A stretch of DNA of 51,560 nucleotides from the IMG/VR virus record IMGVR_UViG_2537561778_000008; one strand, written 5' to 3'. Under the pieces are notes generated by a model, which saw only the letters and a list, made by a program, of their open reading frames with translations, did not search any database and had not been told where the DNA came from. The translations under genes were made by a program, and so were the position numbers. This DNA is from a virus. Its lineage: Duplodnaviria; Heunggongvirae; Uroviricota; Caudoviricetes. How positions within the stretch are numbered: the stretch's first letter is position 1; every line of letters starts with the position of its first letter. Positions 3,320 through 4,596 of the stretch are shown one piece after another.

Positions 3320-3621
3320 TGCAACGGAAACTAACTAAGCGTAATAAAAATTGGTTGAGCGACATGCTGAAAAAAGCCAATCGCAACCATATGTACCTCA
3401 ACGACTGGCTATCAATTAAAGGTAATCTCAGTGATGCAAAAATGATCGACAGACATGTTGCGCGCTATGGTGTTTCACTTGTCTTAGAAAAGGCTGAATT
3501 AGTATTTTCGGAATATTATTCCATTCCGCAAATTAGCTCCAAAGGAAAAATATGTGGCTATGTGCTCAAACATAAAAGCAAGCTGGATGAGCTTTTAGTC
3601 AGGGAAAAGGAGACGCAATGA
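3319..3621 (+). CDS. Hypothetical basic protein, about 100 aa (position of P1 dbn)
   Basis: ATG overlaps ban stop; AT-rich, lysine-rich; stop overlaps next start (ATGA). Confidence 0.4.
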   Translation: MQRKLTKRNKNWLSDMLKKANRNHMYLNDWLSIKGNLSDAKMIDRHVARYGVSLVLEKAELVFSEYYSIPQISSKGKICGYVLKHKSKLDELLVREKETQ

Positions 3622-4590
3622 ACATCCTGATCATTGGGCGAAAATTTGAAGCTATCAGTGATGTGAAAACATATACGGAAATGTGGGCTTACAACCTGGC
3701 CTGCGCCTTTAGTGAGGCTGGGGTAACATTGCAATACCATCGTCCATATTCTCCCGGCGTCGAAAGCCCGGAGGATTATGTTGAAGCTGTGTTGACCGCT
3801 GCGCTCTCGTGTTCTGCGAAAGCCATTTTAGCGCCAGGATTGCGGTATTTTACTACGGTGCCCAGGGAAATAGGCGTGCAACTGCGTCGTCGATTCACTG
3901 GATGGGTAGCTCAGGTATACGACGGTTCTATGCTGGATTCGGCACCAGTTGATATTACTTTTACTGTCCGCGATGATACCTGGCGGTACCTGGATAATCC
4001 CGGCAGGTTAGAGCGTCATAATCGCTTTAACAAACATGTTGGATGGGCAGCGAATCAGGAGCTGTTCCATCTGGAAACCAAAACAGACGATGTTCTGCGT
4101 ATTTTTGTAGACCACGCTGCATTTGATGTTAGTGGTTTTGATCACTCCTTAAGTATCCTTATGAACCTTCAGCGTCTGACCGTTCCGTATGAGGCCAGAA
4201 CGTTGACTGATGACGGATTGGTTACCATTGATCCGGGGAATATTTCGGTAACTCCATACAGACGGACGCCGGTGCCAGCAACCGAATTTGCAGCTGAATT
4301 GCGTAAGAGTGATGTTTTTATTGTTACGCATCCCGAAAGCCTTGGATTAACTGTTCTTGAGGCGGCAATGTGTGGAGCGTTGATATTAACGCTCCACACA
4401 TTGCCTTCCGCCGGATCGCCTGGATTTGGTGAACCATATGGTTATCAAGTCGCGGATTGATTGGGATGAGGTTATTGCTCGCGTTGATCGCGTGAAAAAT
4501 GCTGAAAAGGTCCAGTGTCACACCTGGTCGGCAATCGCGGGAACGATGATTGAGACGTTTGCCGCGCCGAAATCACTGCGCGGCTTATAA
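3618..4590 (+). pseudogene. GT4-type (GT-B fold) glycosyltransferase interrupted by a +1 frameshift near 4455-4464
   Basis: Frame 1 (3618-4460) carries ESLGLTVLEAAMCGALI signature; an overlapping frame open from 4390 to 4590 (+1 relative) encodes WDEVIARVDRV...HTWSAIAGTMIETF, which reads as a GT4 C-terminus; frames overlap at repeat gattgattgg. Confidence 0.5.
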
Positions 4591-4596
4591 CATCAC

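What the first reader, a model, noticed from the sequence alone, without database searches (positions are those of the whole stretch)
3618..4596. Phage-borne GT4 glycosyltransferase interrupted by a single +1 frameshift
The N-terminal 280 codons carry a clear GT-B/GT4 signature, and an overlapping frame open from 4390 to the stop at 4590 (+1 relative) reads like a GT4 C-terminus. The frames overlap at the short repeat gattgattgg, so this is a recent pseudogene, a slippage-prone site, or a sequencing error. I do not recall a glycosyltransferase at this position in P1, so it may be cargo.
Basis: partly seen in the sequence, partly recalled or inferred. Interest (0 to 1): 0.5.

Follow-up and report, generated by a model that had tools for sequence, protein, structure and literature searches.

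The report
Frameshifted P1 dbn glycosyltransferase pseudogene
This is a broken copy of dbn, a conserved but uncharacterised sugar-transferase-like gene of phage P1 and its plasmid relatives; a known replication error rewrote 6 bases as 7 by turning an imperfect hairpin into a perfect one, so the case is ordinary and already flagged in RefSeq.

Summary

- **Identity:** Window 3618-4590 is the ortholog of phage P1 dbn (P7 glt). It sits downstream of the ban helicase gene, as in P1. About 97% of P1-like plasmids carry it, so it is not cargo.
- **Fold:** Intact orthologs (323-332 aa) have a GT-B fold. Their closest solved neighbours are mostly GT4 enzymes, and they carry an EX7E motif. The Pfam score falls just below threshold.
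- **Lesion site:** The frameshift is not at gattgattgg, which is conserved in every intact copy and only holds the premature stop. It lies about 60 nt upstream.
- **Mechanism:** The 6-nt tract CGCCCG of an intact haplotype still circulating was replaced by TCCACAC (4393-4399). That is the exact reverse complement of GTGTGGA (4370-4376). An imperfect inverted repeat became a 42-nt near-perfect palindrome, with a net gain of one base. This is the signature of a quasi-palindrome template-switch mutation.
- **Not an error:** The same allele occurs in four other independent read sets, 12 PLSDB plasmids and 3 IMG/VR contigs.
- **How it arrived:** A recombination breakpoint at 4323-4375 suggests the lesion came in with a downstream 1.2-kb module.

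RefSeq already annotates the gene as frameshifted. Interest is low.

The parts
3618..4590 (+). dbn (P1_gp078 / P7 glt) ortholog, here a frameshifted pseudogene of 973 nt. A repaired copy would be 972 nt including the stop, encoding 323 aa.
   Evidence: 95-98% nucleotide identity to dbn of P1, P7, RCS47 and P1-like plasmids. The intact ortholog matches phrog_2518 at E 2.4e-232. RefSeq NZ_JBUBJX010000003.1 annotates the same stretch as 'glycosyltransferase, frameshifted'.
3618..4460 (+). Frame-0 ORF of 280 aa: 258 native residues (through ACG, T258, 4389-4391), then 22 out-of-frame residues (LHTLPSAGSPGFGEPYGYQVAD), then the premature TGA at 4458-4460.
   Evidence: This exact 280-aa product is on record from other assemblies.
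4402..4590 (+). Native C-terminal 62 codons, now in the +1 frame (CLPPDRLDLVNH...AAPKSLRGL*). This frame is open from 4390.
   Evidence: An intact E. albertii plasmid ortholog ends with the same AAPKSLRGL*. The segment holds the near-invariant family residues D274, R275, L276, W290 and W311 in P1 numbering.
4335..4361 (+). EX7E motif (E240-SLGLTVL-E248; E248/E256 in P1 numbering), the only part with detectable sequence similarity to Glycos_transf_1.
   Evidence: Both glutamates are invariant in 55 family members. The Pfam and PDB sequence matches centre here.
4364..4405 (.). 42-nt near-perfect palindrome, GGCAATGTGTGGAGCGTTGAT|ATTAACGCTCCACACATTGCC, present only in the lesion allele.
   Evidence: 21-nt arms, 95% complementary, no spacer. 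20 of 21 Watson-Crick pairs, against 9-10 of 20 in end-anchored, ungapped register for intact alleles. ssDNA fold -23.8 kcal/mol, z -9.6, 0 of 200 shuffles as good; intact alleles give -9.2 to -13.0. The 15-mer occurs only at these two arms in the window.
4393..4399 (+). Rewritten tract TCCACAC (7 nt), which replaces CGCCCG (6 nt) of the nearest intact haplotype. This is the actual +1 lesion.
   Evidence: An intact haplotype, GGCAATGTGTGGAGCGTTGATATTAACGCCGCCCGATTGCC, in 6 IMG/VR contigs differs from the window only here.
4370..4376 (+). Template tract GTGTGGA in the 5' arm. Its reverse complement equals the rewritten tract.
   Evidence: Read directly from the sequence. This 5' arm is unchanged in intact alleles such as p91 and 12 IMG/VR contigs.
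4323..4375 (.). Interval that contains a recombination breakpoint inside dbn.
   Evidence: Against CP098993 there are 0 differences over 3300-4135, 4 over 4136-4274, then many from 4376 on. Against the NT1F10-type lesion plasmids there are 17 differences over 4074-4322, then 0 over 4323-5309.
1949..3319 (+). ban (DnaB-like helicase), the first gene of the ban-orf101-dbn run.
   Evidence: Annotation of P1, RCS47 and RefSeq relatives. Its TGA stop overlaps the ATG of the next ORF.
3319..3621 (+). 100-aa ORF between ban and dbn. Its stop overlaps the dbn start codon (ATGA). P1 itself lacks it.
   Evidence: phrog_12809, function unknown.
4597..5762 (-). 1.2-kb module with two minus-strand ORFs (233/245 aa and 100/130 aa), inserted between dbn and baseplate gene 5. 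It is linked to every lesion allele seen.
   Evidence: P1 and RCS47 lack it. It occurs with an intact dbn in E. albertii plasmids. phrog_25194 and phrog_34496, function unknown.

Best explanation
The stretch is the dbn gene of a P1-like phage-plasmid, essentially E. coli plasmid p79-13-647b.

**What intact Dbn is.** It is a soluble protein of about 324 aa with a GT-B fold, GT4-like, carrying an EX7E motif. It is encoded in a tightly overlapping ban-orf101-dbn run. Its acceptor is unknown. It is inferred, not shown, to transfer a sugar from a nucleotide-sugar donor.

**How the gene was broken.** One complex mutation killed it. During DNA synthesis across a pre-existing imperfect inverted repeat, the nascent strand folded back and copied the opposite arm. 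The outer stem of that repeat is GGCAAT/ATTGCC and the inner stem is GCGTTGAT/ATTAACGC. The 6-nt mismatched tract CGCCCG was replaced by TCCACAC, the exact reverse complement of GTGTGGA. This made a near-perfect 42-nt palindrome and added one base.

**Consequence.** Translation now leaves the native frame after T258, adds 22 wrong residues and stops at 4458-4460. The last 65 residues are lost: two beta-strands of the donor-binding domain, conserved D/R/L and two Trp residues, and the C-terminal helix that packs back on the N-domain. Loss of function is inferred.

**History.** The lesion arose once in a lineage that also carries a 1.2-kb module downstream of dbn. Its presence in this plasmid is best explained by homologous recombination with a breakpoint at 4323-4375. 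The direction of transfer is inferred.
For: - **Identity and synteny with P1 dbn:**
- **One extra base versus all intact relatives, located at 4393-4399:**
- **Template-switch signature:**
  - An intact haplotype differing only by CGCCCG versus TCCACAC exists in 6 IMG/VR contigs.
  - The new tract is the exact reverse complement of the other arm.
  - Hairpin energy is -23.8 kcal/mol (z -9.6) against -9 to -13 in intact alleles.
- **Heritable allele, not an error:**
- **Decay in other carriers:** 5' truncation at window 4074 plus an extra 1-nt deletion.
- **Intact is the norm and is under constraint:**
  - 73 intact 975-nt genes were found among the IMG/VR loci carrying the non-lesion site, and one full-length locus (L102) is frameshifted.
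  - Mean dN/dS is 0.12 over 47 unique alleles.
  - Full-length homologs are 304-354 aa.
- **Loss is tolerable:** P1 dbn is non-essential by CRISPRi (PMC10695390).
- **Lost residues are conserved in the family:**
- **Mosaic structure:**
Against: - No raw reads were inspected; the case against an error rests on recurrence in independent assemblies.
- No experiment shows that the 280-aa product is inactive or unstable.
- Dbn has never been shown to be an enzyme, and Pfam Glycos_transf_1 stays just under its gathering score (25.1 against 26.4 bits).
- The template switch is inferred from its end product. A series of point changes cannot be formally excluded.
- The direction of the recombination (lesion imported, or 5' part imported) is not resolved.
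Confidence: 0.88

Rival explanations
1. The extra base is a sequencing or assembly error, and the real gene is intact.
For: Single-base frameshifts are a common assembly artefact. Other dbn copies in public phage records are split by homopolymer indels that could be such errors.
Against: The lesion is not in a homopolymer. It is a 6-to-7 nt replacement. The identical sequence is found in a RefSeq plasmid, three SRA-run assemblies, an ENA metagenome assembly, 12 PLSDB plasmids from several countries and hosts, and 3 IMG/VR contigs.
Confidence: 0.02
2. The site is a programmed or slippage-prone +1 frameshift, at gattgattgg or elsewhere in 4390-4457, and a full-length protein is still made.
For: A 68-nt overlap of the two frames exists, and frame 0 ends in GAT TGA T.
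Against: - About 98% of orthologs encode the protein in one frame.
- gattgattgg is conserved in the intact genes as ordinary coding sequence.
- From the sequence and textbook knowledge, not a tool test: GAU to AUU offers no tRNA re-pairing, there is no upstream Shine-Dalgarno-like stimulator, and there is no A/T run for transcriptional slippage.
- A shift at the stop would leave 22 misread codons covering the near-invariant P267, D274, R275 and L276.
- Other carriers of the lesion have lost the 5' half of the gene.
Confidence: 0.02
3. The truncated 280-aa protein, alone or with a separately translated C-terminal fragment from the TTG at 4426, keeps a function, so this is a variant rather than a dead gene.
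For: The N-domain and the EX7E motif are retained. The full-length 5' part is 100% identical to an intact allele over 3300-4135, so there has been no decay yet in this copy.
Against: - The deleted part contains conserved residues, two strands of the C-terminal Rossmann domain and the crossover helix that defines GT-B architecture.
- No recognisable ribosome-binding site precedes 4426 (read by eye).
- The sister lineage with the same lesion is 5'-truncated and carries another indel.
- The lesion allele's tail carries three unique non-synonymous changes against one synonymous.
Confidence: 0.05
4. The lesion arose by ordinary stepwise substitutions plus an insertion, or by conversion from a divergent allele, and the palindrome is a coincidence.
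For: The region is polymorphic among intact alleles; 8 intact haplotypes of the 41-nt stretch occur in IMG/VR.
Against: - Every change relative to the nearest intact haplotype falls in one 6-nt tract.
- The 7-nt replacement is the exact reverse complement of the opposite arm. By my own arithmetic, the chance of a specified 7-mer is about 6e-5.
- No intermediate haplotype is seen among 89 IMG/VR loci.
- No other copy of the sequence exists in the window.
Confidence: 0.05

Closest known systems
Phage P1 dbn (P1_gp078, 'downstream of ban', 'possible glycosyltransferase'), also P7 glt and the RCS47 'glycosyltransferase family 4 protein'
   Same: About 95-97% nucleotide identity over 3618-4560/4572. 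Same position after ban and before baseplate gene 5. Same EX7E motif and protein family, phrog_2518.
   Different: - The window copy carries the +1 palindrome lesion and is a pseudogene.
- It starts at the internal ATG, lacking P1's annotated 8 N-terminal codons, because a 100-aa ORF sits between ban and dbn.
- Its last ~10 codons are of the E. albertii type (AAPKSLRGL*), because a 1.2-kb module follows.
Retaining GT-B glycosyltransferases of CAZy family GT4 (MshA, GlgM, sucrose-phosphate synthase, BshA, PimA/PimB', WaaG/WaaB)
   Different: - Only 8-15% sequence identity.
- Pfam Glycos_transf_1 score just below the gathering score.
- No N-terminal Gly-rich loop (read from the sequence; not tested).
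- At ~324 aa it is shorter than the GT4 and GT5 enzymes nearest to it in the fold searches (354-440 aa).
- Donor, acceptor and activity have never been determined.
Quasi-palindrome-associated template-switch mutations (Ripley model; E. coli lacZ QP5/QP6 reporters and the thyA hotspot studied by the Lovett laboratory)
   Same: An imperfect inverted repeat becomes perfect. A multi-base change with a frameshift is explained by copying the opposite arm in one event (PMC7202029).
   Different: This is a natural allele in circulating phage-plasmids, inferred from population haplotypes rather than selected in a reporter. The strand and the triggering condition are unknown.
Glycosyltransferases encoded in phage glycan or DNA-modification clusters (e.g. 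phage HY126 DNA glycosyltransferase 9iqz, T4 alpha-glucosyltransferase 1y6f)
   Different: P1-like dbn stands alone, with no sugar-nucleotide or base-hydroxylation genes nearby. From general knowledge, P1 DNA is not known to be glycosylated. The structural similarity is no closer than to cellular GT4 enzymes.

Membership tests
P1 Dbn / P7 Glt orthologous group (phrog_2518) | High full-length sequence similarity to P1 Dbn | tested here: met
   95.0% nucleotide identity to P1 dbn over 943 nt. The repaired translation matches 310 of the 324 residues of an intact ortholog. The intact ortholog hits phrog_2518 at E 2.4e-232. The 280-aa product clusters at 90% identity with the 2431-member Dbn cluster.
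P1 Dbn / P7 Glt orthologous group (phrog_2518) | Position downstream of ban and upstream of baseplate gene 5 | tested here: met
   Same order as in P1 and RCS47, with two lineage-specific insertions: orf101 on the upstream side and a 1.2-kb module on the downstream side.
P1 Dbn / P7 Glt orthologous group (phrog_2518) | Single uninterrupted ORF of about 324-332 aa | tested here: not met
   The ORF stops after 280 codons and the C-terminus is in the +1 frame. The window copy is therefore a pseudogene member.
GT-B fold glycosyltransferases | Two Rossmann-like domains with a C-terminal helix crossing back to the N-domain | tested here: met
CAZy GT4 / Pfam Glycos_transf_1 (PF00534) | Score at or above the Pfam gathering score | tested here: not met
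   25.1 bits for the intact ortholog and 17.7 bits for the window's 280-aa ORF, against a cut-off of 26.4. 19 of 55 family members match at E<0.01, best 1.2e-5. The result is borderline: the protein database's precomputed table lists PF00534 for some members.
CAZy GT4 / Pfam Glycos_transf_1 (PF00534) | EX7E motif in the C-terminal domain | tested here: met
   E-SLGLTVL-E at 4335-4361. Both glutamates are invariant in 55 homologs. It aligns to the same motif of MshA and of a solved putative glycosyltransferase.
CAZy GT4 / Pfam Glycos_transf_1 (PF00534) | Nearest solved structures are GT4 enzymes | tested here: met
CAZy GT4 / Pfam Glycos_transf_1 (PF00534) | Retaining transfer from a nucleotide-sugar donor | not testable with these tools
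   No biochemical data were found. Papers mention dbn only as uncharacterised or non-essential.
Quasi-palindrome template-switch mutation | A pre-existing imperfect inverted repeat in the ancestral allele | tested here: met
   Intact alleles have the outer stem GGCAAT/ATTGCC and the inner stem GCGTTGrT/ATTAACGC around a mismatched core.
Quasi-palindrome template-switch mutation | The mutation makes the repeat perfect, and the new bases equal the reverse complement of the other arm | tested here: met
   TCCACAC (4393-4399) is the reverse complement of GTGTGGA (4370-4376). 20 of 21 pairs against 9-10 of 20, and -23.8 against -9 to -13 kcal/mol.
Quasi-palindrome template-switch mutation | All differences from the nearest ancestor are explained by one event, with no intermediates | tested here: met
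   An intact haplotype in 6 IMG/VR contigs differs only in this tract. There are no intermediates among 89 loci.
Quasi-palindrome template-switch mutation | Dependence on replication and strand misalignment (for example, stimulation by AZT or quinolones, suppression by ExoI/ExoVII) | not testable with these tools
   This needs a reporter assay.
Programmed ribosomal frameshift gene | The two-frame arrangement is conserved among orthologs, with a slippery motif in the overlap | tested here: not met
   Orthologs are single ORFs. No slippery or homopolymer motif is visible in 4390-4460.

The most novel reading that the evidence does not exclude
Dbn may be a phage-specific glycosyltransferase with a real ecological role. 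It is under purifying selection and near-universal in P1-like phage-plasmids. Candidate roles are decorating the host LPS core (the P1 receptor) or virion proteins.

On this reading, the lineage seen here could afford to lose it because the linked 1.2-kb two-gene module next door, which includes a membrane-anchored protein, took over or made redundant that role. The palindrome lesion would then mark a natural functional replacement, and it would offer a ready-made natural knock-out for finding out what Dbn does.
Probability: 0.1. Interest if true: 0.45.

Novelty: already known. Interest (0 to 1): 0.15.

Why it matters
The frameshift itself matters little. It is a dead copy of a known, non-essential P1 gene, already flagged 'frameshifted' in RefSeq. 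Two modest points of value remain.

1. **A clean natural template-switch case.** The ancestral haplotype is still circulating, so this is an unusually tidy natural example of a quasi-palindrome template-switch mutation. It is a reminder that clustered substitutions plus an indel can be a single event. It also shows that frame overlap does not locate the lesion.

2. **Dbn is an orphan worth noting.** Its fold is GT4-like. It is present in about 97% of P1-like plasmids and has dN/dS of about 0.12. It is dispensable in the laboratory. Distant relatives are embedded in glycan clusters of large phages. Its substrate remains an open, testable question.

Tried and rejected
- **Slippage at gattgattgg:** rejected. 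The repeat is invariant in intact genes, and the indel maps about 60 nt upstream.
- **Sequencing error:** rejected by recurrence in independent data sets.
- **Cargo gene:** rejected. P1, P7, RCS47 and SJ46 all carry it, as do 471 of 484 plasmids with P1 genes 5 and 6.
- **The palindrome as an intrinsic terminator:** no T-tail, and the terminator scan did not call it.
- **Defence-system membership of Dbn, orf101 or the two module ORFs:** PADLOC gave nothing for Dbn, orf101 and the 130-aa ORF. The 245-aa ORF had only weak hits at E 0.002-0.004.
- **NCBIfam:** only noise-level hits.
- **Profile search of PDB sequences:** similarity only around the EX7E motif.
- **Literature on Dbn function:**
  - The P1 genome paper is not held.
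  - Two full-text searches found dbn only as 'uncharacterised' or non-essential.
  - A third search, pairing dbn with 'P1-like' and 'phage-plasmid', returned no paper containing dbn.
- **The 1.2-kb module against the phage collection:** blastn found no match.
- **Other split dbn genes (phages 673R5 and 813R1; IMG/VR L102):** these are homopolymer indels and may be sequencing errors, so they were not counted as independent inactivations.
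Full report
**1. What is at the coordinates**

An ATG-initiated ORF runs 3618-4460 (280 aa). The +1 frame is open from 4390, after a TAA at 4387-4389, to a stop at 4588-4590. Deleting any one base in about 4390-4402 gives a single 323-codon ORF that matches 310 of the 324 residues of an intact relative. The two-frame observation is therefore real. The end coordinate should be 4590.

**2. Identity of the gene**

Megablast against phage genomes hits P1, P7, RCS47, SJ46 and other Punavirus records at 94.5-96.8% identity. The feature under the match is 'dbn: Dbn' in P1, 'glt: Glt' in P7, and 'glycosyltransferase family 4 protein' in RCS47.

In P1, dbn (P1_gp078, 'function unknown, possible glycosyltransferase') lies between ban and baseplate gene 5. 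The window copy has the same position.

Among PLSDB plasmids, 471 carry dbn DNA, and 484 carry the adjacent genes 5 and 6. The gene is therefore a near-universal component of P1-like phage-plasmids and not cargo.

The window is essentially E. coli GPEC79-13-647 plasmid p79-13-647b (NZ_JBUBJX010000003.1). The only difference over 8.5 kb is an A7/A8 run near 5310. RefSeq already annotates the gene there as 'glycosyltransferase, frameshifted'.

**3. Where the frameshift really is**

Every intact relative has one base fewer than the window. Alignment puts the difference at 4393-4399, inside a small cluster of changes. It is not at gattgattgg (4447-4456). That string is identical in all intact genes, where it is read as R-I-D-W, and it merely contains the premature TGA of frame 0.

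**4. How the lesion arose**

In the window, 4364-4405 reads GGCAAT GTGTGGA GCGTTGAT | ATTAACGC TCCACAC ATTGCC. This is a 42-nt palindrome:
- It has 21-nt arms that are 95% complementary, with 20 of 21 Watson-Crick pairs.
- As single-stranded DNA it folds at -23.8 kcal/mol (z -9.6; 0 of 200 shuffles fold as well).

Intact alleles have only the outer stem (GGCAAT/ATTGCC) and the inner stem, around a mismatched core. They fold at -9.2 to -13.0 kcal/mol.

I scanned IMG/VR for both forms. Three contigs carry the lesion and 86 carry an intact site. Haplotyping the 41/42-nt stretch showed an intact haplotype, GGCAATGTGTGGAGCGTTGATATTAACGC**CGCCCG**ATTGCC, in six contigs. It differs from the window only in that CGCCCG (6 nt) is replaced by TCCACAC (7 nt). 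No intermediates were seen.

TCCACAC is the exact reverse complement of GTGTGGA in the other arm, and the 15-mer has no other copy in the window. A multi-base replacement that perfects a quasi-palindrome and shifts the frame is the defining signature of a template-switch mutation. The mechanism is well documented in E. coli (PMC7202029). I infer a single such event; the event itself is not observable here.

**5. Error, slippage or heritable allele**

The exact 280-aa product is on record from other assemblies. Four contigs carry it:
- Three SRA-run assemblies (SRR7297675, SRR10063778, SRR10088799) are 100% identical to the window.
- One ENA metagenome contig is 99.86% identical.
- Those that extend far enough upstream carry the 100-aa ORF, and all four have an ORF on the opposite strand just downstream.

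The lesion is also 121/121 identical in 12 PLSDB plasmids and 10 RefSeq E. coli records. These come from humans, pigs, chickens and a sheep; the PLSDB set includes one Klebsiella plasmid, and the RefSeq set includes one chromosomal copy. That excludes an assembly error.

Several points argue against a programmed frameshift:
- Orthologs are single ORFs.
- The overlap has no homopolymer or recognisable slippery motif (read by eye).
- A shift at the stop codon would leave 22 codons misread, including near-invariant residues.

**6. Population context**

In the 12 PLSDB carriers and the 3 IMG/VR carriers, dbn is also 5'-truncated at window position 4074. It lies next to a TnpB gene and an integrase fragment, and it carries a further 1-nt deletion. 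That is pseudogene decay.

The window's copy is a mosaic:
- Against the intact CP098993 allele there are 0 differences over 3300-4135.
- Against the truncated NT1F10-type carriers there are 17 differences over 4074-4322, then 0 over 4323-5309.

A recombination breakpoint therefore lies at 4323-4375, next to the palindrome. The lesion travels with a 1.2-kb module (4597-5762, two minus-strand ORFs). That module also replaces the last ~10 codons of dbn. It occurs with an intact dbn in five E. albertii plasmids.

The lesion allele has four private substitutions at 4536-4549, three of them non-synonymous.

By contrast, 73 intact 975-nt genes were recovered from the IMG/VR loci with the non-lesion site. 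They comprise 47 unique alleles with a mean dN/dS of 0.12. dbn is normally maintained by selection, although CRISPRi shows it is non-essential for P1 plaque formation (PMC10695390).

**7. What the intact protein is**

At sequence level the evidence is thin:
- Pfam Glycos_transf_1 gives 25.1 bits (cut-off 26.4) over residues 221-307 of the intact ortholog.
- It gives 17.7 bits over residues 221-258 of the window's ORF.
- It gives nothing for the tail alone.
- NCBIfam gives noise.
- A family profile matches PDB sequences only around the EX7E motif.

A 55-member alignment shows these invariant residues in P1 numbering: D110, W151, A152, D173, H174, D183, F242, T245, H246, E248, S249, G251, E256, G261. 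E248 and E256 form the EX7E motif. Downstream of the lesion, P267, D274, R275, L276, W290 and W311 are near-invariant.

An AlphaFold2 model of the intact ortholog is confident (pLDDT 94.4, pTM 0.90). It is a GT-B fold:
- Foldseek gives E 1.6e-9 to MshA, with TM up to 0.67 to GlgM.

The protein therefore works like a retaining GT4-type glycosyltransferase. Strict Pfam membership is borderline, and activity is untested.

The frameshift falls right after the beta-strand that follows the EX7E helix. It removes two strands, three helices and the C-terminal crossover helix. Loss of function is the reasonable inference.

**8. Hints about function (inference only)**

Homologs at 30-40% identity lie in large phage-like contigs, within sugar clusters. 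The neighbouring genes include:
- GT8-like and GT47-like proteins;
- a nucleotidyltransferase/cupin;
- a polysaccharide pyruvyl transferase;
- methyltransferases;
- terminase, RecA-like and DEAD-helicase genes nearby.

One homolog sits among KdsD-, KdsA-, KdsB- and WaaZ-like genes. This supports a role in glycan chemistry. It does not identify the acceptor in P1, where dbn stands alone in the tightly overlapping ban-orf101-dbn run (TGATG and ATGA overlaps). An LPS-core or virion-protein acceptor is a guess.

**9. Verdict**

This is an ordinary, already-annotated pseudogene of a known P1 gene. The new detail is the mutational mechanism and the correct site of the lesion. 'Slippage site', 'sequencing error' and 'cargo' do not.

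Noticed in passing
window 3319-3621 (+): A 100-aa ORF (phrog_12809, unknown function) sits between ban and dbn, with TGATG and ATGA start/stop overlaps. P1, RCS47 and the E. albertii plasmids lack it and have only an 8-codon remnant (MQWNEEKP) fused to dbn. It accompanies dbn in 52 of the 471 PLSDB hits.
   Followed up: partly
window 4597-5762 (-): A 1.2-kb module lies between dbn and baseplate gene 5, with two ORFs. One is 233/245 aa with a C-terminal hydrophobic helix (phrog_25194). The other is 100/130 aa (phrog_34496). P1 lacks the module. It is present in 17 of 471 plasmids, has no blastn match in the phage collection, and has only weak PADLOC hits (E about 0.002-0.004). It is linked to every lesion allele, but it also occurs with an intact dbn in E. 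albertii plasmids.
   Followed up: partly
window ~5310 and 5318-5332 (-): The only difference between the window and RefSeq NZ_JBUBJX010000003.1 over window 300-8800 is an A7 versus A8 run. This run is the T-tail of a terminator-like hairpin (GCCCCTTATCGGGGC) upstream of the 233-aa ORF. It is either a true polymorphism or a homopolymer sequencing difference.
   Followed up: no
window 4536, 4541, 4544, 4549: Four substitutions within 14 nt are private to the lesion allele: one synonymous, plus E>G, K>T and L>I. They fall in a C-terminal segment that is identical in all the intact P1-like alleles compared. This fits relaxed constraint or a second clustered event.
   Followed up: partly
L004/L005 (NZ_CP075461, NZ_AP027471) 77-3751; L024-L026: In the other lesion carriers, the 5' 456 nt of dbn, ban and orf101 are replaced by a segment with an InsQ/TnpB gene, an integrase fragment and a 311-aa hypothetical gene. 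The remnant has an additional 1-nt deletion at about window 4175.
   Followed up: partly
L021, L022 (phages vB_EcoM-673R5, vB_EcoM-813R1); L102: Other public dbn copies are split by C-run or A-run homopolymer indels. In 813R1, two compensating indels lie 110 nt apart. These look like long-read errors rather than real inactivations.
   Followed up: partly
L008, L010, L012, L015: Dbn homologs at 30-40% identity lie in multi-gene sugar clusters of large phage-like contigs. The clusters include GT8-like and GT47-like genes, an NDP-sugar synthesis gene, a pyruvyl transferase and methyltransferases. One homolog sits beside KdsD/KdsA/KdsB/WaaZ-like Kdo genes. A conserved 234-aa partner gene lies downstream in three of the four contigs, directly adjacent in two of them.
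   Followed up: partly
window 4323-4405: The recombination breakpoint interval inside dbn (4323-4375) abuts or overlaps the 42-nt palindrome (4364-4405). Whether the palindrome promoted the exchange is unknown.
   Followed up: no
window 1593-1668 (+): A tRNA with a CAT anticodon is called tRNA-Met by ARAGORN. It is at the position of P1 trnI, which is annotated tRNA-Ile2 (CAT) in P1.
   Followed up: no
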